From IMG/VR virus record IMGVR_UViG_3300020248_000002: DNA of 64,000 nt; one strand, written 5' to 3'. The DNA is from a virus. This document shows, one piece after another, positions 8,880-50,147 of this stretch. The notes under the pieces were generated by a model that was not told the DNA's origin, searched no databases, and saw only the letters and a program-made list of their open reading frames with translations. Within the stretch, counting starts at the first letter, position 1. Each line of letters begins with the position of its first letter. The position numbers were made by a program, and so were the translations under genes.

Positions 8880-8881
8880 TT

Positions 8882-11882: not shown

Positions 11883-11897
11883 TAGTTTGATACCCTT

Positions 11898-12497
11898 ATG
11901 ATGCACGAGTTATTTCCAACTCCTGTTTTTGAAGAAAATATTGGGGTGCCAGAAGGCACCCTTTCTATTCTCGATACAATGGAGTGGGATAGGTTTGAAA
12001 CCAAAAGTATTACAAAAGAAAAAAATATTTTAAACTTTCTACCTTCTGTTTACAACAGGATACAGAAGCAGATCGAAGACTGGTGCTATAATACACTACT
12101 CATTAAGACTACAAATGAACTAGAGATAGTAAGATCTTGGGCAGCATCACATAAAACTGGAGATAGTTGTGATTGGCATTCACATACCAACGCTGTAATG
12201 AGTGGTGTTTACTATATAATGTGTAACCCTGACAGTGGAAGGTTGTTCTTTAACAAGGGAGCACATTATCAGAACTGTTTTGTTCCTACATTGGAACCAG
12301 ACACAGTAGGATTTGTTCCTGCAACTGCTAAACAATTTTCTATACTACCCGAACCTGGAACTCTGTTGATGTTTCCATCACAGTTAGTACACAGGGCAGA
12401 ACGCAACCAGTCTACAAACTGGCGACTATGTATTGCATATGATGTGTTTATTCGTGGTAGAATAGGTACAGAACACGGTAATGAAGTTACATTATGA
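11898..12497 (+). CDS. 2OG-Fe(II) oxygenase-like protein (TIGR02466 type)
   Basis: LFPTPV, HSH, SGVYY, FPSQLVH, RLCIAYD. Confidence 0.8.
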   Translation: MMHELFPTPVFEENIGVPEGTLSILDTMEWDRFETKSITKEKNILNFLPSVYNRIQKQIEDWCYNTLLIKTTNELEIVRSWAASHKTGDSCDWHSHTNAVMSGVYYIMCNPDSGRLFFNKGAHYQNCFVPTLEPDTVGFVPATAKQFSILPEPGTLLMFPSQLVHRAERNQSTNWRLCIAYDVFIRGRIGTEHGNEVTL

Positions 12498-33100: not shown

Positions 33101-33127
33101 CTAAATATAAACAGAAGGAAATCCTAG

Positions 33128-36100: not shown

Positions 36101-36703
36101 ATACAAACTCTAAGACTTACATACTCAAATGATGATGGTACAGTTCTTAGACAGACATTCTTAGCAGAGGATGATGGATCAGGTCAACCAGATATTGATT
36201 CAACACTTGCGTTTAATGATGGAGATATTATATACAATATTGATTGGGTGGCAGGTGACTCATTAGGTTGGATGTATCAGTCAGGAGTTTGGTATCAGTT
36301 TGGTATGACTGACACCACGCCAATAAAAGCAAGAAGATTTAGTAACGTTACACATTATGGTATAGGTACAATGCCTGACGCATCCAATAGGATGAAGATA
36401 TTAGGTAATACATTCCTTGATGGTAACTTAGATGTTACTGGAACTTATGGTGCTGCTGACAAGTATAGACTAGCAACTGGTATTGCTAATAACAATAACG
36501 GTGTTACCTATGCGGGTAATGGATCTACAACTTCGTTTGCAATATCCCCAGGTCACACAGCATACTCTGTTCTTGTATTCTTAAATGGTGTTGCCCAAAT
36601 CCCAGGTGTAGACTACACAGTTACTGGTAATGCAGTTGACTTTAGTATCAGTACTGCACCACAGAATAATGATACTATCCAAATCAGGGAACTTGTTATC
36701 TAA
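33128..36703 (+). CDS. large tail fibre/spike protein
   Basis: TAAATA at 33102-33107; GNS..RPFKT.QRA, GSDLRRTK, ASGHTFEY.GFGPGNYS; C-terminal LVFLNGV.Q.PG.DY. Confidence 0.75.
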   Translation: MALTRLKNIITSRTGRIIYVNPDDFDASDAYDNRGNSALRPFKTLQRAFLEVARFSYRVGLSNDEFDAFSIYLYPSEYVIDNRPGVATFGEITPFDENSNFDLTSSNNILYKFNSVNGGVICPRGVSVVGSDLRRTKIVPKYVPYPTTQASLGISSANEPSTSAIFRLTGGCYFWQMSFFDGDNNGVYYRPELTDTIAPNFSHHKITCFEYANTTDLDLYYQKISKAYATIPDTSGNIAQDQIQARVEENRIVGPISDEFRVSQIIRNGQTATAFTVDIQDNPVNHGFSVGVAVNISGVTGPTEADANLYNGSFLVTSAQGNQFTYQMSSEPTGNAIGSNVLVKVEIDTVDSASPYVFNCSLRSVWGINGMHADGSQATGFKSMVVAQFTGISLQKDDRAFVKYNASTGNYEAQAAGSGAHIDGLAKYRKGWRHVHIRASNDSFIQVVSVFAVGFGDHFFSDSGGDLSITNSNSNFGNTSLRSKGFKSAAFTKDKAGQITHVIPPKDLSDVAEVSINWVTLDIAKIKAAADPTKLYLYGYTNQNAKPPSKIQGYTVGARKDSPTLPDKVNVLLIAAGASAPTTHSAKIDPSGPEVTGTSPGDDANPIKYDTNQSNWYIQVDSSNNDIYTTLIANSQYNNLGFTPTTFIRRVPDARDLKDRIYRFRYVLDKDAFPVPRTPITGFVIQPRSSETNSPAYDKTYYIFEVETFQEFERGVNDGIYYLTLLNASVSPATSNFDDFSFSQQTVDVYPTFDRDNPLADPGPAISVADNETLGLVTTTDGASPNPNEDKQLSITKETAQFFLLEQENNLGYNTTANTLNAIVVTSRLGDEEERKIALKLNADNSVAPILCELRRYSILRASGHTFEYLGFGPGNYSTAFPSTQVEVLTPAQVRLSQSLKEAAGVAYYSGVNSDGELFVGNQVINPVTGQITNEDIAQLNVLGEENTTIQTFSEVVLTDKLTVIGGASNQLESVFSGPVTFQKRITAQENIQTLRLTYSNDDGTVLRQTFLAEDDGSGQPDIDSTLAFNDGDIIYNIDWVAGDSLGWMYQSGVWYQFGMTDTTPIKARRFSNVTHYGIGTMPDASNRMKILGNTFLDGNLDVTGTYGAADKYRLATGIANNNNGVTYAGNGSTTSFAISPGHTAYSVLVFLNGVAQIPGVDYTVTGNAVDFSISTAPQNNDTIQIRELVI

Positions 36704-36727: not shown

Positions 36728-37582
36728 ATGACCACAAAGATTAATGGTAATCAGATACAGGCAAGTACGAGAGGTCTTGTAACTGCTTGGTCTATATCAG
36801 AACAGTTAAATCTTCCACCGTTGAACCAATCGCAGATTAATGCACTTGGTACACCTGCTTATGGTACTTTAGTTTATAATACGACTGAAGATCAGGCACA
36901 AATTTATTTGCAAGATGCCAACGCAGGAAACCCAGGTTGGGATGATGTAGGTGGTGGTGGTCCTTCTGTTGGTGAAAACTCAATTATTAGAACCAACGGA
37001 ACAAACATAGAAGAAAATATCACTGTTGGACCTTCATTCAATGGTGGAGTAGAGTTTACTAACGGTTTTTCAGCAGGTCCGATACAGATTAATAATGGAT
37101 ATACTGTAACTATTGAGAACGGTGCAACTTGGACTATGATCGGTGACGATGATTTGTCTTTCGCACAATTCCAAGATATAGAATCTGGTCACGGTACATT
37201 CACTGGGACATTATCACACGCAGGTTTACAGGAACATATTTACTACTATCAGACATCTGGTACGGTAAACCATAACTGGAACAACAGTGGTAATATTTTT
37301 GTTAGAAAGACAGGTGGTGGAAACTACACTATCAATCTATCAAATGCACCAGTTGATAACACATTGAAAGCAACCTTAATGACAGTATATACCCGTTTTG
37401 AGGGTGGTACAGGTACACCTACTGGGTGGACTGTAAATGGTTACGGTTGTAACGTATATTATAGTAATGGTAGTGGTGCAAGTGGAACTATCCAAAGAGC
37501 AGACATTTCGATTCATAACCACGAAATCCCTGGAACTGGTAATCCTTATCTCGTACTAATACACGTACACAATTATAGTTAA
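36728..37582 (+). CDS. short tail-fibre-like protein
   Basis: TAAATA at 36701-36706; GGGPSVGENSIIRTN...SAGPI.I..G.TVTI..GA.W module. Confidence 0.65.
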   Translation: MTTKINGNQIQASTRGLVTAWSISEQLNLPPLNQSQINALGTPAYGTLVYNTTEDQAQIYLQDANAGNPGWDDVGGGGPSVGENSIIRTNGTNIEENITVGPSFNGGVEFTNGFSAGPIQINNGYTVTIENGATWTMIGDDDLSFAQFQDIESGHGTFTGTLSHAGLQEHIYYYQTSGTVNHNWNNSGNIFVRKTGGGNYTINLSNAPVDNTLKATLMTVYTRFEGGTGTPTGWTVNGYGCNVYYSNGSGASGTIQRADISIHNHEIPGTGNPYLVLIHVHNYS

Positions 37583-37625
37583 CCGTCTTAAGGTATAAAT
37601 AACATTAGGAAATTAAACAGGCAAA

Positions 37626-38426
37626 ATGAGTACCCTTAAAGTTGCATCTATTAGAGACCTGTCAGGCATTGGTGGATTTACACTTGCGTCAGGTAACATC
37701 ACTGCTAACGGAAATTTGACAGTTAGCAACATCACTATTAATGGAACTATGTCTGGTTCATCCAGTCAGATCGTTCCCTCTGTTAGTGGTCAAAATGGTA
37801 AGTTTTTAACTACAAACGGTTCATCTATGAGTTGGACTGATGTTAGTTCAGAAAATATCTCATCCCTACAGGTATGGACAGGTAACGGAACTTGGAATAG
37901 ACCAAGTGGTGTTAAGTATATACATATCAGAGTTCAAGGTGGTGGCGGTGGAGCGTCAGGTCACGGAGAATCAGGAGCAGCGGGTGGATATTCAGAACGT
38001 GTGTTGAATGTAGTAAATATATCTTCAGTTGGTATCACAGTTGGTGGTGGTGGAGGAGGTACTTGGTACTTCGGACACGGTGGTGATGGTGGTTCATCAT
38101 CATTTGGACCATATCTATCAGCAGGTGGTGGACACGGTGCTAATAGAAACAACCAACACTCAGGTGGACTAGGGCGTAATGGTTCTGGTGGAGACCTCAA
38201 TGTTTGGGGTGGAGGAGGACAGTCACACCACGGTGGTGGTGGAGGAGTCGGAGGTTCTTCTCACTTTGGTGGTGCTGTATCAGGAGGTTGGCCAAACGGT
38301 GGTAACTTCTCACACAATCATCAAGATCACGCAGCGTATGGTGCAGGTGGGTCAGGTGGACACTTCCATAGTTTCCGTGGTTCAAACGGTAAGTATGGTG
38401 TTGTTACTGTTATTAACTACAAATAA
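37626..38426 (+). CDS. glycine-rich fibre/adhesin-like protein
   Basis: TATAAATA at 37594-37601; GTWNRPSGV, poly-Gly runs, SSFG, many His residues. Confidence 0.7.
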   Translation: MSTLKVASIRDLSGIGGFTLASGNITANGNLTVSNITINGTMSGSSSQIVPSVSGQNGKFLTTNGSSMSWTDVSSENISSLQVWTGNGTWNRPSGVKYIHIRVQGGGGGASGHGESGAAGGYSERVLNVVNISSVGITVGGGGGGTWYFGHGGDGGSSSFGPYLSAGGGHGANRNNQHSGGLGRNGSGGDLNVWGGGGQSHHGGGGGVGGSSHFGGAVSGGWPNGGNFSHNHQDHAAYGAGGSGGHFHSFRGSNGKYGVVTVINYK

Positions 38427-38435
38427 GAGGTTACT

Positions 38436-38963
38436 ATGAAAAAAGCATTAATGGATTTTACTGGTTACGTTGCAGACATTGTAGAACCTGGGGAAGAATA
38501 TACACTATTCTTTGGTAGAGGTTGTTCACAGATGTGGGTAAACGCACCTGATAACATAACAAAAGCGTGGACACTAGAATGGAGTCCTGCTGCTGCTGAT
38601 ATGATCTGGGTGGAAAGAACAGAATCATATACAGACCCTGCTACTGCAAGGATTGTAGCGTATGGTGAAATCGGTGAGCAATTAGATATGCTCTACAAAG
38701 ACATTGCAGCGGGAAAAGATTTAGGTGCTGCTGATGCAATATGGTTTAACCATATTAAAGGAGTAAAGGCAGCGACTACTGCACCCTCAAGTGTAGCGGA
38801 ACCAATGGATCCCACTATGACTGAAGAGGAAGTAGCAGAATTTATGAGTGACGGACAAGAACCAAGTGTAAATAGACCTTGCAAATTATCATCACAGGAG
38901 CAACCTTGTTGGGAGAGATATTCTAACTGGGGTGGTGCATATGATGAACTGGGAGCAGGTTGA
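38436..38963 (+). CDS. putative fibre assembly/chaperone protein
   Basis: R..AY..IGEQLDMLYKDI...W..HI..VK motif typical of fibre-associated proteins. Confidence 0.5.
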   Translation: MKKALMDFTGYVADIVEPGEEYTLFFGRGCSQMWVNAPDNITKAWTLEWSPAAADMIWVERTESYTDPATARIVAYGEIGEQLDMLYKDIAAGKDLGAADAIWFNHIKGVKAATTAPSSVAEPMDPTMTEEEVAEFMSDGQEPSVNRPCKLSSQEQPCWERYSNWGGAYDELGAG

Positions 38964-39000
38964 CGAAAGTGTTATAATTAGTAGTACAAACTACTGACAT

Positions 39001-40485
39001 ATGAAGTTAGATAGAATCTGCATTATCGGAGGTGGTAGTGCAGGGTGGATGACAGCATCTATGTTGTCAAGACATTTTGAAGGAACTGGTATAGAAATAA
39101 CTGTTGTCGAAGCAGACATTCCAAGAATCGGAATCGGAGAAAGCACGACACAGTTTTTTAATACCTTTATACGGTATCTCGATCTCAAAGATGAAGATTG
39201 GATGCCACATTGTAATGCTACATATAAACACAGTGTCAAGTTTACTAACTTCAACCCAGACGGTTCATTTCATTATCCATTCGGTACAAGAGGCACAGAT
39301 ATACCTCTGACCGAGTATTATAATTGGAGGAGAGGAAGAAATATTGACAGTATGACCTTTTGTAGGGTATTCTCAGATGTTATAGACCCTATTGAAGTCA
39401 ACCGTCTTTATCCTCCATTTTTAGAAAGATACGTGGGTTATCACGTTGACGCACTATTATTCGGAGATTTTTTAAGAGATCATTATGCAATTCCAAAAGG
39501 TGTTAAACACATTAAAGGCACGGTCACTAACATTCAATCCTGCGTGGATGGGGTTAGCAGAGTTTACCTTGGCAGTGGGGATAGGTACGTTGATGGTGAT
39601 CTCTTCATAGATTGCACTGGATTCCGTGCATTATTGATGAATGAACTTAATGTGAAATGGGAAGATTGGAGTACACTATTAAAAAATGATTCTACTTGGG
39701 CAGTAAGAAAACCATATACAGATAAGAAAAAAGAAATACAACCATACACCGAGTGTACAGGTTTGAGTTCGGGATGGGTATGGAATGTACCTACTTGGGA
39801 TAGAATCGGAACGGGATATAATTATTGTTCACAATATATTACAGATGAAGATGCACTTGCAGAGTTTAAAGAGCATCTAGGAGTAGATATACCAGAGAAT
39901 ATGTTTAGATTACTCAAGTGGCCAACAGGGATTAGAGAGAAAGTATGGTCACATAACGTAGTGAGTATTGGTTTAAGTGCAGGTTTTATAGAACCATTAG
40001 AGTCTGGAGGACTATACTCAGTCCACGAGTTCTTATTTAAACTAATACAGGTGTTACCTAAAGCATCTAATAAATGGAACGGATTTCAACGAGAACAATT
40101 TAATCACTCAGTCAGAAAGAAATTTACATCATTCAGAGATTTTGTTGTGAAACATTATACTATGGGTTATAGAGATGATACACCGTTTTGGAAAGATTAC
40201 ACAGATATGGATGCACTAGGTGAGTTTCCAGATTTACTTACACAAGATTGGGAACAAATACAAAACATCAATTACATATCAGAAGGTGAAGCATACTTGC
40301 TAGGAGGTTATGAATATGATATAATGCCAGAACATTATGAAATGTTATCCAAAAGAAATGGATATAACATACCTGATTTTGAAGAACCGATCCTAAGAAG
40401 AACCTTTATGGATCAGACTTTGGGGAGATACCCGAACGCATATGAATACTATGAAAAGTACCTATATAATGAGCAAGGGAATTAA
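39001..40485 (+). CDS. flavin-dependent halogenase (tryptophan halogenase family)
   Basis: GGGSAG, IGIGEST, ATYK (catalytic Lys position), FIDCTGF, WVWNVP, FIEPLESGG. Confidence 0.92.
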   Translation: MKLDRICIIGGGSAGWMTASMLSRHFEGTGIEITVVEADIPRIGIGESTTQFFNTFIRYLDLKDEDWMPHCNATYKHSVKFTNFNPDGSFHYPFGTRGTDIPLTEYYNWRRGRNIDSMTFCRVFSDVIDPIEVNRLYPPFLERYVGYHVDALLFGDFLRDHYAIPKGVKHIKGTVTNIQSCVDGVSRVYLGSGDRYVDGDLFIDCTGFRALLMNELNVKWEDWSTLLKNDSTWAVRKPYTDKKKEIQPYTECTGLSSGWVWNVPTWDRIGTGYNYCSQYITDEDALAEFKEHLGVDIPENMFRLLKWPTGIREKVWSHNVVSIGLSAGFIEPLESGGLYSVHEFLFKLIQVLPKASNKWNGFQREQFNHSVRKKFTSFRDFVVKHYTMGYRDDTPFWKDYTDMDALGEFPDLLTQDWEQIQNINYISEGEAYLLGGYEYDIMPEHYEMLSKRNGYNIPDFEEPILRRTFMDQTLGRYPNAYEYYEKYLYNEQGN

Positions 40486-40487
40486 TT

Positions 40488-42128
40488 ATGAAAGTTGAAA
40501 ACATTGTTATTGTGGGTGGTGGTTCATCAGGTTGGATGACTGCTGCTGCATTGTTAAAGTGCTGCCCGTGGACAAATGTAATTCTAATTGAATCAGACAA
40601 ACCTACAGTGGGTGTAGGAGAATCTACATTAGGTCATTTCAACAAGTATTTAAGAGCATTAGACTTAGAAGATAAAGACTGGATGCCTAAGTGTAATGCA
40701 ACATATAAGAATAGTATTCAGTTTACAGATTTTAGAGAGAAAGGAACAGTATTTCAATATCCATTTGGTAAATATGATTATAATGATACTGTAGAAGGTA
40801 TGAAAGATTGGTTTGATCTTGCTAGAGAAAGACCAGAAGAATATCCTCCAGAATCATTTGCAGAGTTCTTTAACAAAGAAAACTCAGCATTAGTAAAACA
40901 TAATAAACAATGGGATAATAGAGATAATAGATGGAGAAACTTTAATTGGTTAACTGACGTTGCATATCATTTAGATGCTGAAAAGTTTGCAGAGTATCTA
41001 AGGGATGATTATTGTGATAACTTTGATGATAGATTTACACATATTAGAGGTGAAGTCAGGGGATCGGTGAAAGATATAAACGCAGGTGGTTCACCCGCAG
41101 TCTCAAACAGATATATTAAACAGTTAGCAGTCAGATTAAATGAAGATAAAAGGACTGTAGGTGTTATTGGCGACTTGTTTATTGACTGTACTGGTTTTAA
41201 ATCAGTCCTATTAGAAGAGTATATGGGTACTAGGTTCATTAAATTTAATGATTTAGCAAACGATAAAGCATATTTTGCCCGCATACCATATCTCACACAA
41301 GATGAAAGAGAAAAACATATGCACAACGTGACTGACTGTCAAGCAGCGGAAAATGGTTGGTTATGGTCAATACCACTATGGAATAGGATCGGAGTTGGAT
41401 ACTGTTGGTCATCTCGATTTGCAATGGAAACAGAGACTAGACAAGAGTTTGAAACGTGGATAGAACAAAAATATGGTGTATCTCCAGAACAGTATGAGGT
41501 AGGAACTATTGATATAAAACACGGGTATCACGAAAAAGCGTGGAACTTGAATGTTGTTGCTATTGGACTGTCTTATGGATTTGTTGAACCATTAGAGTCA
41601 ACGGGACTGTTAACAACACACGAAAATATACTCAGACTGGTAGATGTATTATCAAGAAGAAGAGGATATGTAACACAAATAGAAAGAAACTGGTATAACT
41701 ACGCTGCACAGAGAGAAGTAATTGGATTTAGTAAGTTTGTTGCTATGCACTATGCTCTGTCACAAAGAACAGACAACCCTTATTGGAGGTGGTGTTCACA
41801 AAGAAACGAGTATATGACAGAGCAGTTTGATGGTTTGGTAAGAGTTAATGATAACTATGAAAGACTTGGATCATCATTAGACCTAGATCAAACTATGGAT
41901 GTGAATATGAATGGTATGAATTACATAGCAGCAGGTCAAGGAATGATGTTAGGTCGAGATTGGTATTTTGACCGTGATCCAGATGAACTTACATTTGTTG
42001 CAAACAGTCATTCAAAATACTCAAAAGAAGTCAATGACTTTGTTGAAAGTGATGACTGCCCTACACATTATGAATACTTAAGAGACTACATCTATGGAGG
42101 GGATGAATTACGTGCTGAACTTATTTAA
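40488..42128 (+). CDS. flavin-dependent halogenase, second paralogue
   Basis: GGGSSG, VGVGEST, ATYK, FIDCTGF, WLWSIP, FVEPLESTG. Confidence 0.92.
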   Translation: MKVENIVIVGGGSSGWMTAAALLKCCPWTNVILIESDKPTVGVGESTLGHFNKYLRALDLEDKDWMPKCNATYKNSIQFTDFREKGTVFQYPFGKYDYNDTVEGMKDWFDLARERPEEYPPESFAEFFNKENSALVKHNKQWDNRDNRWRNFNWLTDVAYHLDAEKFAEYLRDDYCDNFDDRFTHIRGEVRGSVKDINAGGSPAVSNRYIKQLAVRLNEDKRTVGVIGDLFIDCTGFKSVLLEEYMGTRFIKFNDLANDKAYFARIPYLTQDEREKHMHNVTDCQAAENGWLWSIPLWNRIGVGYCWSSRFAMETETRQEFETWIEQKYGVSPEQYEVGTIDIKHGYHEKAWNLNVVAIGLSYGFVEPLESTGLLTTHENILRLVDVLSRRRGYVTQIERNWYNYAAQREVIGFSKFVAMHYALSQRTDNPYWRWCSQRNEYMTEQFDGLVRVNDNYERLGSSLDLDQTMDVNMNGMNYIAAGQGMMLGRDWYFDRDPDELTFVANSHSKYSKEVNDFVESDDCPTHYEYLRDYIYGGDELRAELI

Positions 42129-42903
42129 AAAGAAAAAGAAAGAACCAAAACCTTGGGTTAGGTTTCACAGTTTGGAGCCTGGATTGGCAGAATGTTATCC
42201 AGTCAAACCAACGTCTAGTATAAAACGTGCGTGGCAAGAAAAAGAAGTAAAGGAAAAGCAATGCCCTTTTCAAGGATCACAGAATAGTTCAAACTGCCCT
42301 GGTATCAAGCAAATTGCGAGAATGGGATGGGTAGTTGTTGCACCTATGGATTTTATTATTATCACAAATGGTGACGGTGCATCTTTTACTTGGGAAACCC
42401 CTGGCAGATTCTCAAGGCACACTAATTACATTAGTAATCACGCACCAGAACAGGTTATTCCATTAATTGACAGTCCACGTGACACATTAGCACACATAAT
42501 TAAGGTGGAAACACCTTGGCGACTGACATCTAGTGATGATGTTGTTCTATTACAACAACACGTTCATTGGAATAATGAAGATCGTTTTACTGCTGTAACT
42601 GGGATCTTTGATCCTAGATATGCTATGCAAGTAAACGTGCAACTACAATGGCACGTTATGGATAGTGGCACAGATGGAACACTTGTAAAAGCAGGTACTC
42701 CATTAGCACAATATATACCTATACCACGTATTTACTTAGAGAAAGGGTGGTATGATATGACAGTCAATAATGCGACTGACAAAGATTGGGATTTAGAACA
42801 CGCTTTTAACTACTCAATCAATGCCGAGTATATGATACACGACAATGTTCAAGGTCGTATATCTAGGGCAATGAAGGCAATTAATTACCACAAAAACAAA
42901 TGA
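42103..42903 (+). CDS. hypothetical protein (DUF6065-like, possibly dUTPase-like fold)
   Basis: CPG......GWVV.AP.D, K.ETPW, VKAGTPLAQYIP. Confidence 0.5.
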   Translation: MNYVLNLFKKKKKEPKPWVRFHSLEPGLAECYPVKPTSSIKRAWQEKEVKEKQCPFQGSQNSSNCPGIKQIARMGWVVVAPMDFIIITNGDGASFTWETPGRFSRHTNYISNHAPEQVIPLIDSPRDTLAHIIKVETPWRLTSSDDVVLLQQHVHWNNEDRFTAVTGIFDPRYAMQVNVQLQWHVMDSGTDGTLVKAGTPLAQYIPIPRIYLEKGWYDMTVNNATDKDWDLEHAFNYSINAEYMIHDNVQGRISRAMKAINYHKNK

Positions 42904-43205
42904 CTATTGACGAACTAATCCAAAATTTCTATCTACAACAGAAACAGGTAGATTTAGAAATTGAAAACTATGACAAAGAGTTTGCTGACAAAAAATTAAA
43001 CCCATACGGTGTTACAACCATTGAGTTTGAAAAACGATCTGAAGCAATTAAGAAAAGATCACAATTAGAAGGTGCTATAGATGCCCTAATGATTTGTAAA
43101 CGTGATGTTCTTGGTGATGACAGTGAAGTTTCTATTCCAAACAACCTTGAGGTTGAAGGTGGTGGAAATGAAGAAATGGAGATTATAGGTGGATCATCAT
43201 CTTGA
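42900..43205 (+). CDS. coiled-coil hypothetical protein
   Basis: Coupled ORF; QLEGAIDAL. Confidence 0.55.
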   Translation: MTIDELIQNFYLQQKQVDLEIENYDKEFADKKLNPYGVTTIEFEKRSEAIKKRSQLEGAIDALMICKRDVLGDDSEVSIPNNLEVEGGGNEEMEIIGGSSS

Positions 43206-43788
43206 ACCATTAGATGAGGTTCATTGGTTATGGAAACTCAAATACGAGTTTGCATACGAAGGAGAGTCTCTACAAGAACATATCGGTAAACTGATAGATC
43301 ATACTGTACAGAACTATGGAACTGGATCAGCATTAGAAACTGGTGCATCATTTTCTACAGTATATAATCAGGAACATTCTCCACATAATTGGGAAGTGTT
43401 AGAGGATTTGTTCGTATTTCTACAACCAAAGTTACAAGAGATATGGACACATTGGGGATATAGTAACAAAATAACAAAACCCGTTCGTTCTTGGGTAAAC
43501 GTACATAAAAAAACGGGAAAAACTATGGAACATTATCATAATCAATGCCCTATGGTTGTTAGTTGTTATTTAAAAGCACCAAAGAAAAGTGGAAACTTTG
43601 AATACCGAGATCCATTGGAATACCATAGATGGGGTAGTCCAGGGGAACCTCAAATTTCATTATGGAGAGAAGTTGAAGTAGAAACAAATGATATAATAGT
43701 ATTTCCAGGGTGGTTAAAACATAGAACACAGGTAAACCAAACTGATGAAGATAGAGTTTGTTTAACTATTAATTATGATTGCGATTAA
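43189..43788 (+). CDS. 2OG-Fe(II) oxygenase-like protein (TIGR02466 type)
   Basis: SWVN, HYH, FPGWLKH, RVCLTIN. Confidence 0.8.
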   Translation: MDHHLEPLDEVHWLWKLKYEFAYEGESLQEHIGKLIDHTVQNYGTGSALETGASFSTVYNQEHSPHNWEVLEDLFVFLQPKLQEIWTHWGYSNKITKPVRSWVNVHKKTGKTMEHYHNQCPMVVSCYLKAPKKSGNFEYRDPLEYHRWGSPGEPQISLWREVEVETNDIIVFPGWLKHRTQVNQTDEDRVCLTINYDCD

Positions 43789-44311
43789 AGATGACATAAT
43801 ACCTGAGTTATATCAGGACAGAATTTACAGTATGATGACTAACACGGTGTTTCCGTGGACATTTTTAGAAGATGTCACATACAGAGAGAATGATGTAGCA
43901 AAAAATATAAACGCAAACGCAACAGGAACTACTGGATTTGCACATTTATTTTATGATAGACAAAGTGAACACGAGTCACGTTATTGGGATTTCTTATTTC
44001 CATTGTTTCTAACTATTGTAGATAATCCAAACTTTGAATTATTAAGAGCAAAGGGTGGATTACTATTAAATACAAATACAGGTTACAATCACGCACATAT
44101 AGATGCGGAGATACCACACACAACCACATTATATTATGTGAATGATAGTGATGGTGACACCTATTTTTTTGATGGTGATGGATCGGTGATCCAAACGGTG
44201 AAACCTAAAAAAGGTAGGATCGTAACTTTTAATGGGTTAACATATCACTCATCTAGTTGCCCTAAAGAAAACTCACACAGATTAGTTTTAAATTTTAATT
44301 ATGTCATATAA
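43775..44311 (+). CDS. 2OG-Fe(II) oxygenase
   Basis: FPW, HID, LYYVNDSDGDT, PKKGR..F.G..YHSS, RLVLNFN. Confidence 0.82.
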   Translation: MIAIKDDIIPELYQDRIYSMMTNTVFPWTFLEDVTYRENDVAKNINANATGTTGFAHLFYDRQSEHESRYWDFLFPLFLTIVDNPNFELLRAKGGLLLNTNTGYNHAHIDAEIPHTTTLYYVNDSDGDTYFFDGDGSVIQTVKPKKGRIVTFNGLTYHSSSCPKENSHRLVLNFNYVI

Positions 44312-44930
44312 TTATCCCACAGTAGTTATAGATGATTTCTTTGAGACACCCACACTCGTAAGAGAATGGGCATTGGGATTGGATTATTTACCTGCTGCGA
44401 AACATCCGTCAGGTGGTTATTGGTCAGGTGTGAGAGCAACTCCATTACTACACGAAAATGATTATCGTTTTCATCAGAAATTAGCACAAAAATTAATTCA
44501 GTATATACCACACGCAACATACTTTGAGAAATTAGATGCAACTTTTCACGTATGCACAGATGATTATGAATCGGGATGGATTCATAGGGATGATGATGAT
44601 TATGGTATTGGTGGTTTGATTTATTTAAACGAGACAAATCCACAAAATTGTGGTACAATATTATATGATGTACCCAGTAATGACGATAGCATCAATTATG
44701 AAAAAGAGTTCAAATCAAATGTAACTACAGATGATATTGAACTAAGAAAACGACTGAATAAAATGAGATTGGACTGTAATAAACATTTCACTCCCAATAC
44801 ATCAGTCGAAGCACGTTTTAATCGCTGCATCATATTTGATGGTAGAAAATACCACTCAGGCGGTGATTATTTTGGAAATGACATCACCACAGGTCGATTA
44901 ACCCTAGTATTTTTTGGTAAAGTATTATGA
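44301..44930 (+). CDS. 2OG-Fe(II) oxygenase (DUF6445-like)
   Basis: VIDDFF..P..VR..AL, IHRD, IYLN, FNR.IIFDG..YH, RLT.VFF. Confidence 0.8.
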   Translation: MSYNYPTVVIDDFFETPTLVREWALGLDYLPAAKHPSGGYWSGVRATPLLHENDYRFHQKLAQKLIQYIPHATYFEKLDATFHVCTDDYESGWIHRDDDDYGIGGLIYLNETNPQNCGTILYDVPSNDDSINYEKEFKSNVTTDDIELRKRLNKMRLDCNKHFTPNTSVEARFNRCIIFDGRKYHSGGDYFGNDITTGRLTLVFFGKVL

Positions 44931-45658
44931 GAACAATTAATCACGAAGGAGTAGCAGTTGAGGTTCTTGTAGAAGATCGTCTATTTGTTGCCCGCAGTGC
45001 AGTTCCAAAAGAGTTATGTGAACACACAGCACTCGAATATCATATGATAAAGGATGTTGTTCAATATCAATACCCAGATATGCCTATGGGCGACCCTACT
45101 ATGCCTGGGGCATTTAGTATGTACTGCCCTGTATGTTTTGAAGCATTAGGACAATACCATAAACCATTTGTTGAATCATTAATTGAAAAAGAATTATGGC
45201 AAACATTTAGTTATGGTAGGTTGTATGTAAAAAACACAGAGTGCTATCAGCATAGAGATCGTAGTTCGGGAGAATGGGTGGGAAACATTTGTGTAACAGC
45301 AGACCCACAATATAAATGGTCATTCTTTATAGATGTCAAAGGTGAGAAACACGAATTATTTTTGGAAACAGGTGATTCGGTAATTTTCAAAGGACACGAA
45401 GATTTGCATTGGCGACCAAACTACGAAGGAAACAAAGAACAAATACAATGTTTCGTTTCTTATGTTGATAAGAACGGACAATACGCTGATCGAAAATGGG
45501 ATGGCAGACCAATGCTTGCAGCACCTTGGGAAGCAGCGAGTGATTTAGTAAGAAATGAACAATCACAACAAAACCATAATCCTTATTACGGTAAATGTGA
45601 AAACAATACTGGAGAAGGTTATGACGAAGATGATGAAGCATTTGAAGAATTATTATGA
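44927..45658 (+). CDS. 2OG-Fe(II) oxygenase-like protein
   Basis: SYGRLY, HRDR.S.E, GD.VIFKG....HWR, Q.F..YVD. Confidence 0.75.
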   Translation: MRTINHEGVAVEVLVEDRLFVARSAVPKELCEHTALEYHMIKDVVQYQYPDMPMGDPTMPGAFSMYCPVCFEALGQYHKPFVESLIEKELWQTFSYGRLYVKNTECYQHRDRSSGEWVGNICVTADPQYKWSFFIDVKGEKHELFLETGDSVIFKGHEDLHWRPNYEGNKEQIQCFVSYVDKNGQYADRKWDGRPMLAAPWEAASDLVRNEQSQQNHNPYYGKCENNTGEGYDEDDEAFEELL

Positions 45659-45798
45659 ACCATTACAACTTTGACCCTAATATTACATTTCCAATATCAA
45701 TAGCAGTAATCACAATACTGTTAGCAGGTTATGGAATTTATAAGGGATTTTTTGCAAATCAAAATTTAACAGACCCTTGGGATGACCACGATGACTAA
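45655..45798 (+). CDS. psbN: PsbN-like protein (47 aa; absent from ORF track)
   Basis: ISIAVITILLAGYGIYKGFFANQNLTDPWDDHDD matches the PsbN pattern TM-GY.IY..F....L.DP(F/W)..H(E/D)D. Confidence 0.8.
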   Translation: MNHYNFDPNITFPISIAVITILLAGYGIYKGFFANQNLTDPWDDHDD

Positions 45799-45874
45799 TT
45801 ACGGACTAGAAATAGTGTTTTGGGTAACACTAGGATTATTTCTCATTATTCAATGGGAGAAAGTTAAAAAATGA
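45791..45874 (+). CDS. 27-aa single-TM peptide
   Basis: MTNYGLEIVFWVTLGLFLIIQWEKVKK; overlaps both neighbours. Confidence 0.45.
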   Translation: MTNYGLEIVFWVTLGLFLIIQWEKVKK

Positions 45875-46107
45875 ATGAAGTCACAGTATTTGTTTACTTG
45901 TGTTTCTTTGTTGCACTATTCGGAATGACCTTTGCATTTATGTTTAAAATGATGACAGCAACATTAAGGGAAATGGATAGATCACCTGTCAACAGTTATG
46001 GTGATGCTATGAAACCGTACAAAACCACACACCCAGAAATGGATGAGGTGAAAAACGGTGATGAGTTGTTAGTTTTTAAAATAGAAGATGAGGAGGAAGA
46101 TGATTAG
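45871..46107 (+). CDS. DUF2973-like membrane protein
   Basis: N-terminal TM segment, HPEM......ELLVF. Confidence 0.6.
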   Translation: MNEVTVFVYLCFFVALFGMTFAFMFKMMTATLREMDRSPVNSYGDAMKPYKTTHPEMDEVKNGDELLVFKIEDEEEDD

Positions 46108-46735
46108 TCCTGCATTTCCAAAAATTCCTGATTATATAATTGTTGATGATCTCATATCTGAAACATATCAAGAATGGTTAATCTCTTTAATTAAAGATGA
46201 GAACTTGATGTGGCACAGAAAAGACTCAGCAATTATGGATGCAAATTCGGAAGATCGCAGAAATGGGTTCTGTAATTTTCATTATATGTATGAGTGTGAT
46301 AAAGGTGGAAATGTATCTCCTTTGTGTAACGCATTTGTTCCTATGTCACTCAACATTATGGACAAAATCGGTGCATTTAATTTAATGAGAATGAGAATTA
46401 ATTGTGTACCCGCTATGTATGAAAACGTGACACAGTTACCACACATTGACTCATACGTTCCAGACAGTTGGAACGTAATATATTATATGGATGACTCAGA
46501 TGGAGACACAGTTATCTACAACGAAAGAACCCTAAATGATTATGACTATAACAAATATCTGAAAGAAGATAACTTCACAGAAAAGGTTAGAGTCACACCC
46601 AAAAAGGGTAGAGCAGTTGCCTTTAAAGGCGACCTATTCCACGCTTCTACGACCCCCAGTAAGACGTGGCGACCAGTTGTTAACATAAACATATCCCTAA
46701 ACCCTATTACACAAAATCCGTATAGTAATGCGTAA
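46100..46735 (+). CDS. 2OG-Fe(II) oxygenase
   Basis: PHID, IYYMDDSDGDT, PKKGR...F.G..FHAS, RPVVNIN; paralogue of 43775. Confidence 0.82.
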   Translation: MISPAFPKIPDYIIVDDLISETYQEWLISLIKDENLMWHRKDSAIMDANSEDRRNGFCNFHYMYECDKGGNVSPLCNAFVPMSLNIMDKIGAFNLMRMRINCVPAMYENVTQLPHIDSYVPDSWNVIYYMDDSDGDTVIYNERTLNDYDYNKYLKEDNFTEKVRVTPKKGRAVAFKGDLFHASTTPSKTWRPVVNINISLNPITQNPYSNA

Positions 46736-47438
46736 CTACGAACCTAATTTAATTGACTCAGGAGAGGATTGGGTAGTCTGTAAATCAGAAGTTGTATCCA
46801 ATGAATCAGAGGAAATGAAAGTACAACTTGGTAGAGCATATCGTCTATTCAAGAATACTTTTACAGGGTGTGACTCGTCATTAAAAAATGATGGACTAAC
46901 ACTTGATGCACTACCAGATTTATTTTCTCAGGTAGATGCACGACAAGAAGATATGGAACAACTAAAAAATATGAAATCGGGAGACTTAAGTGGATATAGA
47001 TTTTATAATGTATTTAATTTAACTTCTCCTAGTCCTCTGTTTTATCATCTATTAAAAGAAATTAGTGCAATCGTAAGGAAACATTTAGGTAACTTTGGTG
47101 TTAATCCTGATGACCCATTGTGGATGCAATGTTGGATGAATTTTCATAAACCAGATCAAGTGTTAGATTGGCACGATCATCATTTTCCGTGGCACGGATA
47201 TATTAGTATCGACCCAAAAGACTCAATAACAAAATTCAAAGAGCATTTACCAGTAGGAACATACGAGTATAATATAATCAATAAAATTGGGAATATCTAC
47301 TTGGGGCCTGGTTTTTCGAGGATGCACAAAGTCGTAGTTAATAACGATTATGAAGGCGATAGGATTACTTTAGGGTTCGATATTATAACTCAATCAACAC
47401 TACCTGACGATCAATTCTCTCTCATTCCATTATTATGA
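46728..47438 (+). CDS. 2OG-Fe(II) oxygenase-like protein
   Basis: QCWMN, WHDH, HGYISIDP, MHKV, RITLGFD. Confidence 0.7.
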   Translation: MRNYEPNLIDSGEDWVVCKSEVVSNESEEMKVQLGRAYRLFKNTFTGCDSSLKNDGLTLDALPDLFSQVDARQEDMEQLKNMKSGDLSGYRFYNVFNLTSPSPLFYHLLKEISAIVRKHLGNFGVNPDDPLWMQCWMNFHKPDQVLDWHDHHFPWHGYISIDPKDSITKFKEHLPVGTYEYNIINKIGNIYLGPGFSRMHKVVVNNDYEGDRITLGFDIITQSTLPDDQFSLIPLL

Positions 47439-48067
47439 ACTTATCAGACTCACTAGAAAATGTAGCAGACACAAATGTGTATGGTGTCTTTATGCAACCA
47501 GTAGGAAAGTATAAAGTAAAGAATCACGCAAAATTCAAAACTATCATTATGCAATATATTGCTGAATTAGATGGTTCTAAATTAGAAAATAAGCACCCTA
47601 CTATATCTGTTAATGTCTCACAATTAGGAGATCATCAAATCCTTGAACTACCAGAATTTAGAGAATTAAAAAACGAGATCAAGAACGCAGTTAATGAGGT
47701 AAACAAACAGGCATTTTGCTATGAACTAACTGATGGCACACACTTTGCTGACAGTTATTTGGAATTAGGACAACAGGGTGCGTTATATGCCCCACACGAA
47801 CATAGTAATTGCATCTACTCAGGAACTTATTACGTTAACTTTGATAGAGAAAGGCATACTATGATGAAATTTAGGAGAAATATAATTTCATCACATTATC
47901 CTATACTTCAAGTTGGTACAACACAAATGAACGCATTTAATCAATTAGACTGTACAGTACCGTATGATGAAGGTGATATTATAATTCACCCCCCTAACTT
48001 ACAACACGGATATGAAGGGTCAGGACACGCTAACAGAATTACATTAACTTTTAATGTTGCCCCTTGA
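47435..48067 (+). CDS. 2OG-Fe(II) oxygenase-like protein (TIGR02466 type)
   Basis: PHEHSN, SGTYY, EGD.II.P..LQH, RITLTFN. Confidence 0.78.
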   Translation: MNLSDSLENVADTNVYGVFMQPVGKYKVKNHAKFKTIIMQYIAELDGSKLENKHPTISVNVSQLGDHQILELPEFRELKNEIKNAVNEVNKQAFCYELTDGTHFADSYLELGQQGALYAPHEHSNCIYSGTYYVNFDRERHTMMKFRRNIISSHYPILQVGTTQMNAFNQLDCTVPYDEGDIIIHPPNLQHGYEGSGHANRITLTFNVAP

Positions 48068-48100
48068 CGACATTAAATAGACGCTATAATACATAGTATT

Positions 48101-48322
48101 ATGAACAGCGAAACTAAAATGGTGGGTAAGTCTCGCATTTTAGATGATAGACAAAAATCTATTATCAAAAAAGCAATCGCACTCTATATGGGCGACTTAT
48201 ACAGAAAAAACTCAAGGCACTCTATTGATGATGAACGATTAAAAGTCGATTTGTCAGTAGTAGATGAAATTTGTGAATTACTACATTTGAAATATGAACA
48301 GAGTTCAATTCCAGAGTGTTGA
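48101..48322 (+). CDS. hypothetical protein
   Basis: ORF after the TTGACG...TAAATA...TATAAT region 48064-48090. Confidence 0.5.
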   Translation: MNSETKMVGKSRILDDRQKSIIKKAIALYMGDLYRKNSRHSIDDERLKVDLSVVDEICELLHLKYEQSSIPEC

Positions 48323-48839
48323 TCTATTACCTGTATTTGGTAAACCGATCTATATTCAACATTGTGAGTCTCAACAAGGCACAAAGCAACACGCAGATGC
48401 ACTTTTAGTCAGTAGTGACACAGGTAAAAGTGTGAATAATGATGTTGCAACTAAACAAGTTGCGTGGAAAACATTAATTTATTCACAATTAGAATCTATG
48501 TCAGGTCTAATTGGATTGGAAACGGAACTTAAATTACAAGAGTCCTATGTAAATAGATTGAAACAAGGACAATCGTTGCACTTACTACCAAAAAATGATA
48601 GAATATTAACTGGAGTTTGGTTTATTGAAGAACCTAAAACACAAATGGTCTGGACAGATAATTCAGAGCAATGGTTTGCAGGTTTGGATTTAAAATTTGG
48701 TAATGAAAATCTAGTAAATTCAAATGAATTTCAATTCACACCAACTGAAGGAAACTTTTGTTTATATCCTAGTTCAATGACTCTCAGTATTGGACATACA
48801 GGAAATAACGTGAGTATTCTTGAGTTCTACCTTAAATGA
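48294..48839 (+). CDS. degenerate TIGR02466-like oxygenase-fold protein
   Basis: VFGKPI, SYVN, TGVWF, P.EG...LYPS retained; HxH and distal His absent. Confidence 0.55.
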   Translation: MNRVQFQSVDLLPVFGKPIYIQHCESQQGTKQHADALLVSSDTGKSVNNDVATKQVAWKTLIYSQLESMSGLIGLETELKLQESYVNRLKQGQSLHLLPKNDRILTGVWFIEEPKTQMVWTDNSEQWFAGLDLKFGNENLVNSNEFQFTPTEGNFCLYPSSMTLSIGHTGNNVSILEFYLK

Positions 48840-50110: not shown

Positions 50111-50121
50111 AATACTGTCAC

Positions 50122-50147
50122 ACCCTGTCTTGTTAGGCAGGGTTTTT
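50122..50147 (+). terminator. terminator-like hairpin overlapping promoter
   Basis: accctgtct-tgtt-aggcagggt followed by tttt. Confidence 0.6.

What the first reader, a model, noticed from the sequence alone, without database searches (positions are those of the whole stretch)
36728..48839. Tailoring-enzyme island (two halogenases plus about eight 2OG-Fe oxygenases) beside fibre genes: candidate virion-modification system
Seen: directly after the fibre genes (36728, 37626, 38436) runs a tightly coupled series of two intact flavin-dependent halogenases, a DUF6065-like protein and oxygenase-fold proteins of several subfamilies (43189, 43775, 44301, 44927, 46100, 46728, 47435, degenerate 48294). 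No NRPS/PKS, transporter or flavin reductase is visible in the window. Established: cyanophage halogenases (e.g. VirX1) and many cyanophage 2OG oxygenases exist with unknown natural substrates. Inference: the island looks like a biosynthetic cluster without a scaffold enzyme, so the substrate may be a protein. Candidates are the adjacent Trp/Tyr/His-rich fibre proteins (halogenated or hydroxylated to alter receptor binding or stability) or the small peptides in the island.
Basis: partly seen in the sequence, partly recalled or inferred. Interest (0 to 1): 0.8.

Follow-up and report, generated by a model that had tools for sequence, protein, structure and literature searches.

The report
Fibre-linked halogenase and oxygenase gene cluster
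A marine T4-like cyanophage carries, right behind its tail-fibre tip genes, the already described Syn9-type cluster of two halogenases, a dUTPase-fold protein and seven to eight oxygenases; the enzymes' target is unknown, but the cluster is inherited together with one particular fibre-tip gene pair, which makes the fibre a testable candidate.

Summary
Window 36728-48839 encodes three fibre-tip genes. These are followed by two intact flavin-dependent halogenases, and the second is a VirX1 orthologue. Next come a dUTPase-fold protein (Syn9 gp43 family), seven 2OG/Fe oxygenases with intact metal triads and one degenerate copy. A psbN gene and a tiny membrane-protein gene interrupt the oxygenase run.

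This is a new member of the Syn9 gp35-gp54 block, whose enzyme part was described by Iyer et al. 2010 (PMC2938197) and read there as metabolite biosynthesis. This scan has found and followed up the same block on other DNA several times.

New here:
- The Gly/His-rich protein (37626) and the gp40-family protein (38436) never occur without a halogenase next door: 78 of 78 viral contigs and all 20 and 17 phage records.
- The trio is also kept in a 354-kb T4-like jumbo phage.
- Most junctions are tightly coupled or carry a T4-type late promoter motif.

Against a fibre-specific role:
- Halogenase-oxygenase pairs also sit in replication, terminase and psbA contexts.
- Oxygenases follow fibre genes in phages that lack halogenases.
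- The enzymes diverge faster than the fibre protein.
- Halogenase 1 comes and goes among near-identical fibre types.

Virion modification is partly supported and unproven.

The parts
31193..36703 (+). Two large tail-fibre genes (635 and 1191 aa), upstream context of the block
   Evidence: phrog_693 E=7e-91 and phrog_529 E=0, both 'tail fiber protein'. A late-promoter motif TATAAATA lies at 29823 before the preceding virion structural gene.
36728..37582 (+). Fibre-tip protein, Syn9 gp35 family (284 aa)
   Evidence: phrog_29506 E=2.5e-74; 41% identical to Syn9 gp35. The N-terminal 140 aa are found in 273 cyanophage records. The family is flagged as a virion protein in the supplement of Sullivan 2010.
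37594..37601 (+). T4-type late promoter motif TATAAATA, 25 nt before the Gly-rich gene
   Evidence: Exact match; one of four in the window, two of which precede structural genes. This is a motif only; function is inferred.
37626..38426 (+). Gly/His-rich adhesin-like protein, Syn9 gp38/gp39 family (266 aa)
   Evidence: PF21722 Gly_rich_2 at 24.7 bits against a cut-off of 24.3; phrog_863 'tail fiber assembly' E=4.6e-54; 61% identical to Syn9 gp38. Found in only 17 phage records, all with the halogenase block.
38436..38963 (+). gp40-family protein (175 aa), always found between the Gly-rich gene and the halogenase
   Evidence: phrog_1787. AF2 pLDDT 86: an N-terminal beta domain plus helices, with no clear fold match. 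W34, W103 and W159 are invariant. A halogenase lies within 2.5 kb downstream in 78 of 78 viral contigs, and a Gly-rich gene lies upstream in 71 of 71.
38972..38980 (+). Extended -10-like motif TGTTATAAT in the 37-nt gap before halogenase 1
   Evidence: Read from the sequence. Relatives have in this place either a gap of 20 nt or less, a terminator plus late motif, or TATAAT.
39001..40485 (+). Flavin-dependent halogenase 1 (Syn9 gp41 type, 494 aa)
   Evidence: PF04820 E=1.6e-100. Motifs: G10GGSAG, K76, W259VWNVP, E331PLES. It forms a separate paralogue clade in the tree and is present or absent among close relatives.
40488..42128 (+). Flavin-dependent halogenase 2, VirX1/Syn9 gp42 orthologue (546 aa)
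   Evidence: PDB 6QGM VirX1 at E=2.9e-152, aligned over residues 1-539; 48% identical to Syn9 gp42 and to the same place in Syn10. Motifs: G10GGSSG, K74, W291LWSIP, E367PLES.
42094..42903 (+). dUTPase-fold protein with an invariant Cys, Syn9 gp43 family (269 aa)
   Evidence: AF2 pLDDT 91. Foldseek probability 1.0 to dUTPases. VIA Z 9.5, rmsd 2.8, 119 residues aligned to 3h6x; the top 11 hits are all dUTPases. C68, D86, H116, K137 and W142 are invariant. Follows the halogenase in 54 of 88 loci.
42900..43205 (+). Small acidic helical protein, Syn9 gp44 family (101 aa)
   Evidence: 47% identical to gp44. Found after the gp43-type gene in 29 loci. No family hit.
43189..45658 (+). Four 2OG/Fe oxygenase-fold genes: 43189 (gp45 type), 43775 (gp51 type), 44301 (gp52 type, DUF6445), 44927 (gp54 type)
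   Evidence: Family hits. Triads H115/H117, H108/D110, H95/D97 and H109/D111. Syn9 counterparts.
45655..46107 (+). psbN (47 aa) and a 78-aa membrane protein inserted in the oxygenase run
   Evidence: PF02468 PsbN E=7.7e-10, 38.9 bits against a cut-off of 25. DUF2973 is weak at E=0.002.
46088..48067 (+). Three more oxygenase-fold genes: 46088 (gp53 type), 46728 (gp47 type), 47435
   Evidence: PF13640 at 24.4 bits, below the cut-off; phrog_2696 E=1.8e-39; PF13759 at 33.9 bits. Triads H119/D121, H149/H151 and H121/H123.
48294..48839 (+). Degenerate oxygenase-like gene (181 aa), probably in the next transcription unit
   Evidence: PF13759 E=0.0067, below the cut-off. No HxD/E in the barrel. TTGACG-15-TATAAT lies before 48101.
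50122..50143 (+). First strong intrinsic terminator on the + strand after the fibre genes
   Evidence: 9-bp stem with 5 GC pairs and a T-run.

Best explanation
This is a new member of the Syn9 gp35-gp54 block of T4-like cyanomyoviruses. A distal fibre-tip cassette is followed by a tailoring-enzyme operon.

Composition:
- Fibre-tip cassette: a gp35-type tip protein, a Gly/His-rich gp38-type adhesin-like protein, and a gp40-family protein.
- Enzyme operon: gp41-type and VirX1/gp42-type flavin-dependent halogenases, a gp43-type dUTPase-fold Cys protein, gp44, and seven apparently active 2OG/Fe dioxygenases.

Chemistry, from established knowledge of the families:
- The halogenases take FADH2 from a host reductase. 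With O2 and halide they make a hypohalite that the conserved Lys delivers to an electron-rich aromatic carbon.
- The dioxygenases hydroxylate C-H bonds at the cost of 2-oxoglutarate.

Most likely use (inferred, not shown): the enzymes act late in infection on a phage-encoded protein made from the co-inherited upstream genes. The candidates are aromatic or His residues in the loops of the Gly-rich protein, and the invariant Trp residues of the gp40-family protein. The effect would be to change fibre-tip chemistry.

The identity of the genes is near certain. The protein-substrate step is the uncertain part, and the confidence given refers to it.
For: Gene identities.

Cassette linkage:
- gp40-type genes occur in 20 phage records and the Gly-rich type in 17. 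All of these records carry the halogenase next door.
- In IMG/VR, 78 of 78 further gp40-type loci have a halogenase within 2.5 kb downstream, and 71 of 71 have the Gly-rich gene upstream.
- The dependence is one-sided. Halogenases occur without these two genes, but not the reverse.

Same order across lineages: Syn9, S-RIM44, P-TIM40, S-CREM1, P-RSM6 and S-WAM1, and a 354-kb T4-like jumbo phage without psbA.

Other arrangements also place halogenases by tail genes:
- convergent with tail fibres in L083, L087, L075 and L088;
- beside a phrog_9851 fibre in L065, and after a baseplate-wedge-like protein in L070 and L072;
- divergent from tail-fibre-assembly-annotated genes in P-SSM2.

No carrier protein (PF00550) or flavin reductase in four complete relatives.

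Junction before the halogenase in 75 distinct loci: 25 have a gap of 20 nt or less, and 21 have a late-promoter motif, 17 of them after a terminator. In the window, a late motif lies at 37594 and there is no strong terminator until 50122.

Literature:
- VirX1 has a large open active site that takes bulky substrates (PMC8407142).
- A 2OG oxygenase was detected in a CsCl-purified cyanomyovirus virion preparation (PMC12801897).
- Iyer et al. 2010 proposed tail-collar and Gly-rich proteins as dioxygenase substrates in bacterial operons (PMC2938197).
Against: - The linkage may be inherited synteny plus a hotspot. In the halogenase tree the fibre-adjacent context is mostly one deep clade, so independent events are few.
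- Halogenases, with or without an oxygenase beside them, lie elsewhere: S-B64 next to gp46/47, S-MbCM6 in the psbA island, L082 next to DNA polymerase, and HTVC008M between the terminase genes. They also occur in bacterial TonB-receptor operons (PMC2938197).
- Oxygenases follow fibre genes in S-SM1 and S-RIM2, which lack halogenases. A second oxygenase cluster lies about 100 kb away in the closest complete relatives.
- Among close relatives the Gly-rich protein is 84-89% identical, but halogenase 2 is 61-65% and halogenase 1 is 45-57%. Halogenase 1 is present or absent regardless of fibre type.
- psbN sits inside the run.
- The dUTPase fold hints at a small nucleotide-like ligand.
- VirX1 works on free small molecules in vitro (PMC8407142).
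- Syn9 gp38-gp40 are not flagged as virion proteins in the table of Sullivan 2010, whereas gp35 is.
- The window's own junction has a TATAAT-type motif, not a late-type one.
Confidence: 0.35

Rival explanations
1. Small-molecule tailoring, the published reading. The halogenases, the dUTPase-fold protein and the dioxygenases successively halogenate and hydroxylate a free amino-acid-derived or other host metabolite during infection, giving an organohalogen product. Adjacency to fibre genes is then only gene order.
For: - Iyer et al. 2010 proposed this for the Syn9 cluster. They showed that gp52-type and gp54-type dioxygenases pair with Trp halogenases in bacterial operons that have TonB receptors, NRPS and other biosynthetic genes (PMC2938197).
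- VirX1 halogenates many free aromatic compounds in vitro (PMC8407142).
- Halogenases, with or without an oxygenase beside them, lie away from fibre genes.
- psbN and other metabolic genes share the region.
Against: - No scaffold, carrier, ligase or exporter is seen in the window or in four complete relatives.
- This reading does not explain why the gp38-type and gp40-type genes never occur without a halogenase.
- No halogenated metabolite of marine Synechococcus or Prochlorococcus infection turned up in the papers read.
Confidence: 0.3
2. There is no single pathway. The end of the fibre module is a hyperplastic insertion site where unrelated accessory genes pile up. The oxygenases then have several independent roles, such as nucleic-acid repair, host-protein hydroxylation and 2-oxoglutarate drawdown, and the halogenases are one more passenger.
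For: - The oxygenases belong to at least four families and are not recent duplicates (PMC2938197).
- Battery content differs between close relatives.
- psbN and membrane peptides are inserted.
- Oxygenases also sit by uvsY, gp3 and elsewhere and in a second cluster.
- Earlier proposals of DNA repair and 2OG/NtcA modulation exist (PMC2984593, PMC3037559).
Against: - The core order halogenase, gp43-type, gp44-type, gp45-type oxygenase is kept over sequence divergence down to about 36% identity, with overlapping genes.
- Halogenase, gp43-type protein and oxygenase are also found together without the Gly-rich cassette (L063, L064, L078, L083, L087).
- A pure hotspot would not give 78 of 78 linkage.
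Confidence: 0.2
3. Nucleotide or nucleobase chemistry. The dUTPase-fold protein binds a pyrimidine-type nucleotide that the halogenases and dioxygenases modify, giving modified phage DNA or a nucleoside analogue.
For: - dUTPase fold with Z 9.5, a motif III-like GxxDxxY (GIFDPRY) and a motif IV-like GTPLAQ.
- VirX1's best reported substrate is an azaindole heterocycle.
- Some 2OG dioxygenases hydroxylate bases (PMC2938197).
Against: - dUTPase motif V is absent and motif II is unclear.
- Herpesvirus dUTPase-fold proteins among the fold hits (pp71, ORF10) show that the fold is reused without the enzyme activity.
- No TGT/DpdA-type base-exchange enzyme is present in four complete relatives.
- A review states there is no evidence for modified nucleotides in cyanomyoviruses (PMC2984593).
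Confidence: 0.07
4. Host-protein modification. The enzymes hydroxylate or halogenate host proteins, such as the translation or photosynthetic apparatus, to reprogramme the cell.
For: - Many characterised relatives of these dioxygenase families modify proteins (prolyl, asparaginyl and ribosomal hydroxylases; PMC2938197).
- psbN lies in the run.
- No scaffold enzyme is present.
Against: - The MINA/No66-type ribosomal-oxygenase-like gene of Syn9 (gp49) has no counterpart in this window.
- This reading does not explain the one-sided linkage to the fibre-tip genes.
Confidence: 0.08

Closest known systems
Syn9 gp41-gp54 dioxygenase/halogenase cluster (Weigele et al. 2007; analysed by Iyer, Abhiman, de Souza and Aravind 2010, PMC2938197)
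   Same: Same order and same families. gp41 corresponds to 39001, gp42 to 40488, gp43 (dUTPase fold, conserved Cys) to 42094, gp44 to 42900, gp45 to 43189, gp47 to 46728, gp51 to 43775, gp52 to 44301, gp53 to 46088 and gp54 to 44927. The upstream genes also match: gp35 to 36728, gp38/39 to 37626 and gp40 to 38436.
   Different: Identities are only 30-61%. There is no counterpart of gp36, gp37, gp46, gp48, gp50 or the MINA/No66-type JmjC gp49. The window has extra genes: 47435, the degenerate 48294, psbN and a membrane peptide. The published reading is metabolite synthesis, and the link to the fibre-tip cassette was not part of it.
VirX1, the flavin-dependent halogenase of cyanophage Syn10 (PDB 6QGM)
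   Same: 40488-42128 aligns end to end at E=2.9e-152 with all catalytic motifs. It lies in the same position as the Syn10 and Syn9 gene.
   Different: About half of the residues differ. Halide preference and substrate are untested here, and VirX1's natural substrate is itself unknown (PMC8407142).
gp38-type polyglycine adhesins of T2- and S16-like phages
   Same: A Gly-rich protein encoded after the distal fibre gene, with aromatic and His residues between the Gly runs.
   Different: No sequence match to any solved structure. Not shown to be in the virion. No T-even phage is known to me to pair gp38 with halogenases; this last point rests on my own knowledge.
Bacterial operons pairing beta-hydroxylase or PhyH dioxygenases with tail-collar or collagen-like Gly-rich proteins (Iyer et al. 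2010)
   Same: Dioxygenases are co-encoded with a Gly-rich or tail-fibre-like non-enzyme protein that was proposed as their substrate.
   Different: Those operons carry sulfotransferases and no flavin halogenases. They are cellular, not viral, and are also untested.

Membership tests
Flavin-dependent (tryptophan-type) halogenases, PF04820 | Pfam model above its curated cut-off | tested here: met
   337.6 and 280.9 bits against a cut-off of 21.
Flavin-dependent (tryptophan-type) halogenases, PF04820 | GxGxxG FAD motif, WxWxIP motif, catalytic Lys and the conserved Glu | tested here: met
   HAL1: G10GGSAG, K76, W259VWNVP (Val in place of Ile), E331PLES. HAL2: G10GGSSG, K74, W291LWSIP, E367PLES. 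The residues are invariant in 14 and 31 homologues.
Flavin-dependent (tryptophan-type) halogenases, PF04820 | Halogenating activity and a flavin reductase partner | not testable with these tools
   No PF01613 reductase in four complete relatives. A host reductase is assumed.
VirX1 orthologue group | Full-length similarity and the same genomic position as Syn10 VirX1 / Syn9 gp42 | tested here: met
   6QGM at E=2.9e-152 over residues 1-539. Second of the tandem pair, followed by the gp43-type gene. Lies inside the gp42 clade of the tree.
2OG/Fe(II) dioxygenases (double-stranded beta-helix) | Family model above its cut-off | tested here: met
   Met for 43189 (54.4 against 27), 43775 (28.1 against 27), 47435 (33.9 against 27) and 44301 (DUF6445, 44.5 against 24). 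Below the cut-off for 46088 (24.4), 46728 (14) and 48294 (17.2). 44927 is found only by PHROGs.
2OG/Fe(II) dioxygenases (double-stranded beta-helix) | HxD/E(H)...H metal triad and a basic residue for 2-oxoglutarate | tested here: met
   Seen in seven proteins by inspection and absent in 48294. No structural model was made of any oxygenase.
Syn9-type tandem dioxygenase/halogenase cluster (Iyer et al. 2010) | Two tandem halogenases, a dUTPase-fold protein with a conserved Cys, and an array of distantly related dioxygenases | tested here: met
   (C68 invariant).
Syn9-type tandem dioxygenase/halogenase cluster (Iyer et al. 2010) | MINA/No66-type JmjC member (gp49) | tested here: not met
   No window protein matches Syn9 gp49 at E<=0.01. 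This member is variable among relatives, so it is not essential to the cluster.
dUTPase (enzyme family) for 42094 | dUTPase beta-barrel fold | tested here: met
   VIA Z 9.5, rmsd 2.8 A, 119 residues aligned (3h6x). Foldseek probability 1.0.
dUTPase (enzyme family) for 42094 | Five conserved dUTPase motifs, including the C-terminal P-loop-like motif V | tested here: not met
   Only motif III-like (GIFDPRY) and IV-like (GTPLAQ) stretches, and possibly motif I (APMDF). The C-terminus is a helical hairpin. The protein is filed as fold only, not as the enzyme.
NRPS/PKS or carrier-dependent biosynthetic cluster | Phosphopantetheine carrier domain (PF00550) | tested here: not met
   None in four complete and one partial related genome, and none among the window genes scanned.
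gp38-type fibre adhesin for 37626 | Gly-rich domain, and position after the distal fibre gene | tested here: met
   PF21722 at 24.7 against 24.3 (marginal); phrog_863 and phrog_21412; gene order.
gp38-type fibre adhesin for 37626 | Presence at the fibre tip of the virion | not testable with these tools
   Syn9 gp38 and gp39 are not flagged as structural in the table of Sullivan 2010. No solved relative.

The most novel reading that the evidence does not exclude
The phage halogenates and hydroxylates its own receptor-binding fibre-tip proteins, namely the Gly/His-rich gp38-type protein and/or the gp40-family protein. That would be the first halogenated virion protein and would name the natural substrate of VirX1-type viral halogenases. 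The variable oxygenase set would then diversify fibre chemistry without changing fibre sequence.
Probability: 0.3. Interest if true: 0.85.

Novelty: new member of a known kind. Interest (0 to 1): 0.5.

Why it matters
Two questions have been open since 2005-2010: what cyanophage halogenases such as VirX1 act on, and why T4-like cyanophages carry up to a dozen 2OG oxygenases.

The cluster itself is not new. The new point is that two fibre-tip genes depend on it one-sidedly. This turns a vague 'unknown substrate' into a short list of named proteins. These can be checked by mass spectrometry in cultured phages such as Syn9, Syn10, P-TIM40 and S-CREM1.

If the fibre is the substrate, host recognition by abundant marine viruses would depend on seawater halide chemistry and on host 2-oxoglutarate and flavin supply. 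If it is not, the metabolite reading gains weight and points to virus-made organohalogens.

Tried and rejected
- Megablast of the whole region against 50,697 phage records found no match, so there is no sequenced close isolate.
- The Syn9 transcriptome paper (Doron 2016) and the VirX1 paper are not held. The expression class of gp38-gp54 and VirX1's behaviour towards tryptophan or peptides could therefore not be read.
- The supplements of PMC7238727 gave orthologue lists but no timing for these genes.
- Complex prediction of halogenase 2 with the gp40-family protein, both as 31-row alignments, gave no verdict (score 0.01). This is neither for nor against binding.
- Fold search of the gp40-family model found no clear match. 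The best hit was Z 4.6 over 54 residues to the cyanophage Pam3 fibre N-terminus, which is too weak to use. The Atlas gave only sub-threshold leads to tail-assembly-chaperone families.
- PDB sequence searches were uninformative. Two oxygenases gave nothing useful. The third matched only unnamed structural-genomics proteins (2RG4, 3BVC). The two fibre-tip proteins gave nothing.
- The gp40 family shows no similarity to the 'L-shaped tail fiber assembly' genes beside the P-SSM2 halogenase.
- The 7-deazapurine idea was checked: no TGT/DpdA in the relatives.
- The first reverse locus search with the wide alignment failed for lack of a conserved stretch. It was repeated with closer sequences.
- Sigma-70 promoter-like sites are no more frequent than in shuffled sequence (71 against 73), so the generic scan was not used for promoters.

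Full report
**What is there.**
The window is a T4-like cyanomyovirus with no close sequenced isolate; megablast found no match. All genes between 29860 and 50110 lie on the + strand, mostly overlapping by 4-35 nt.

Gene order:
- a virion structural gene (phrog_692);
- two large fibre genes (phrog_693 and phrog_529);
- a gp35-type tip protein (36728);
- a Gly/His-rich protein (37626; PF21722, just above its cut-off; phrog_863);
- a 175-aa protein (38436; phrog_1787);
- two halogenases (39001 and 40488);
- a 269-aa protein (42094; phrog_7084) and a 101-aa acidic protein (42900);
- eight oxygenase-like genes.

*Halogenases.* Both keep the FAD motif, the catalytic Lys, WxWx(I/V)P and EPLES. The second aligns end to end with VirX1 of cyanophage Syn10 (PDB 6QGM, E=2.9e-152). 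The first belongs to a separate paralogue clade, the Syn9 gp41 type.

*Oxygenases.* Seven show a metal triad and a C-terminal Arg. 48294 does not.

*Interruption.* A psbN gene (PF02468, E=7.7e-10) and a small membrane-protein gene interrupt the oxygenase run.

**The 269-aa protein.**
An AlphaFold model built from 30 homologues (pLDDT 91) has a dUTPase-like barrel.
- Foldseek gives probability 1.0.
- VIA gives Z 9.5, rmsd 2.8 A and 119 aligned residues to 3h6x. The eleven best hits are all dUTPases.
- It keeps motif III-like and IV-like stretches and an invariant Cys, but lacks motif V.

It is therefore filed as a fold, not as the enzyme.

**It is a known cluster.**
Gene by gene, the region corresponds to Syn9 gp35-gp54. 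Iyer et al. 2010 (PMC2938197) described the Syn9 array. [quoted passage not shown] They proposed synthesis of organohalogen metabolites.

Earlier ideas for these genes:
- antibiotic production, and DNA repair (PMC2984593);
- modulation of 2-oxoglutarate and NtcA (PMC3037559).

VirX1's natural substrate is unknown (PMC8407142). The window lacks counterparts of gp36, gp37, gp46, gp48, gp49 (the JmjC member) and gp50. It adds 47435, 48294 and psbN. Notes of this scan show that the same block was found and followed up on other DNA several times, with similar conclusions. I used them only as a lead to the 2010 paper, which I then read.

**Test of linkage to fibre genes.**

*Forward direction.* Among 80 IMG/VR loci chosen by halogenase similarity, plus eight isolate loci, most show one order. 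It runs Gly-rich gene(s), gp40-type, optional halogenase 1, halogenase 2, gp43-type, optional gp44-type, then the oxygenase battery. The same order holds in Syn9, S-RIM44, P-TIM40, S-CREM1, P-RSM6 and S-WAM1, which belong to several genera.

*Reverse direction.*
- gp40-type genes occur in only 20 phage records and the Gly-rich type in 17. All of these carry the halogenase block. By contrast, the N-domain of the gp35-type protein occurs in 273 records.
- In 78 further viral contigs found through the gp40 family, 78 have a halogenase within 2.5 kb downstream. Of the 71 with enough upstream sequence, all 71 have the Gly-rich gene upstream. These contigs are mostly close relatives, so the count is not 78 independent events.

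*Other lineages and arrangements.*
- A complete 354-kb T4-like phage without psbA keeps this order: fibre with S74 chaperone, three Gly-rich genes, gp40-type, a 408-aa unknown, an oxygenase, then the halogenase.
- In other uncultured large phages a multi-halogenase and oxygenase battery lies convergent with tail-fibre genes.
- Elsewhere the halogenase lies beside a phrog_9851 fibre, or after a baseplate-wedge-like protein.
- In P-SSM2 the halogenase is divergent from genes annotated as tail-fibre assembly.

**What weakens the fibre reading.**
- Halogenases also lie next to gp46/47 (S-B64), in the psbA island (S-MbCM6), next to DNA polymerase (L082), between the terminase genes together with an oxygenase (HTVC008M), and in a variable region (S-PM2).
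- Halogenase, gp43-type and oxygenase genes occur together without the Gly-rich cassette (L063, L064, L078).
- In S-SM1 and S-RIM2, which have no halogenase, oxygenases still follow or sit among the fibre-distal genes.
- The closest complete relatives have a second oxygenase cluster about 100 kb away.
- In the halogenase tree, fibre-adjacent members form mostly one deep clade. The association may therefore go back to few events.
- Among close relatives the Gly-rich protein stays 84-89% identical, while halogenase 2 is 61-65% and halogenase 1 is 45-57%. Halogenase 1 is present or absent without regard to fibre type. So there is coarse co-occurrence but no fine co-variation.
- Syn9 gp38-gp40 are not flagged as virion proteins in the table of Sullivan 2010, whereas the gp35 family is.
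- The fibre proteins are only marginally rich in Trp, Tyr and His.

**Transcription, from motifs only.**
- TATAAATA precedes the structural gene at 29860 and the Gly-rich gene at 37626.
- The first strong + strand terminator after the fibre genes is at 50122.
- The 37-nt gap before halogenase 1 holds TGTTATAAT.
- The junction before the first halogenase was compared in 75 distinct sequences. In 25 the gap is 20 nt or less. In 21 there is a T4-type late motif, 17 of them after a terminator. In 10 there is only TATAAT, as in the window. The remaining 19 are unclear.
- Late or fibre-coupled expression is thus likely in many relatives but is not settled for this phage.
- A TTGACG-15-TATAAT site before 48101 suggests that the degenerate oxygenase belongs to the next transcription unit.

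**Missing partners.**
Four complete relatives have no flavin reductase (PF01613), no carrier protein (PF00550) and no TGT/DpdA. The halogenases must therefore use a host reductase. No NRPS or PKS scaffold is available.

**Reading.**
The gene identities, and membership in the Syn9-type cluster, are secure. For the substrate I favour a phage-encoded protein from the co-inherited cassette (0.35). The reasons are the one-sided dependence of the two cassette genes on the halogenase, its retention in two very different phage lineages, the lack of any scaffold enzyme, and the late-type junctions.

Rivals:
- the published small-molecule reading (0.3);
- a hotspot without a common pathway (0.2);
- host proteins (0.08);
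- nucleotide chemistry (0.07).

Nothing here shows a modified protein.

Noticed in passing
window 45655-45798: A 47-aa psbN gene (PF02468, above the cut-off) sits inside the oxygenase run, followed by a 78-aa membrane protein with a weak DUF2973 match. This is a photosystem-II accessory gene in an unexpected place.
   Followed up: partly
L014:2913-3281, L019:9636-10000, L032:9686-10000, L034:9687-10000: In an estuarine or freshwater-looking clade, the gap between the gp40-type gene and the halogenase holds an extra small ORF of about 75-85 aa (conserved core ...LVSFxKK...). It is followed by a terminator and a TATAAATA motif. The ORF is absent from the window and could be another candidate partner or substrate.
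   Followed up: no
L015:10408-12681, L018:12579-14835, L026:19502-21611, L033:19337-21593 and others: One or two further halogenase genes lie on the opposite strand just after the oxygenase battery, so the battery is bracketed by halogenases in these relatives.
   Followed up: no
L059 (354-kb complete viral contig), 624-12364: A T4-like jumbo phage without psbA carries the order fibre, three Gly-rich genes, gp40-type, 408-aa unknown, oxygenase, halogenase, next to gp15. The 408-aa protein has no family hit.
   Followed up: partly
L169 (Pelagibacter phage HTVC008M) 5418-7377: An oxygenase-halogenase pair is inserted between the small and large terminase genes. Four more oxygenases lie divergently upstream of the neck genes.
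   Followed up: no
window 48064-48100 and 50105-50143: A TTGACG-15-TATAAT site lies before 48101. A strong terminator at 50122 overlaps a GACA...TGTCAC-type palindrome.
   Followed up: no
window 49532-49738: A small protein with a clear DUF7441 match (E=6e-18) lies among the tiny genes after the island.
   Followed up: no
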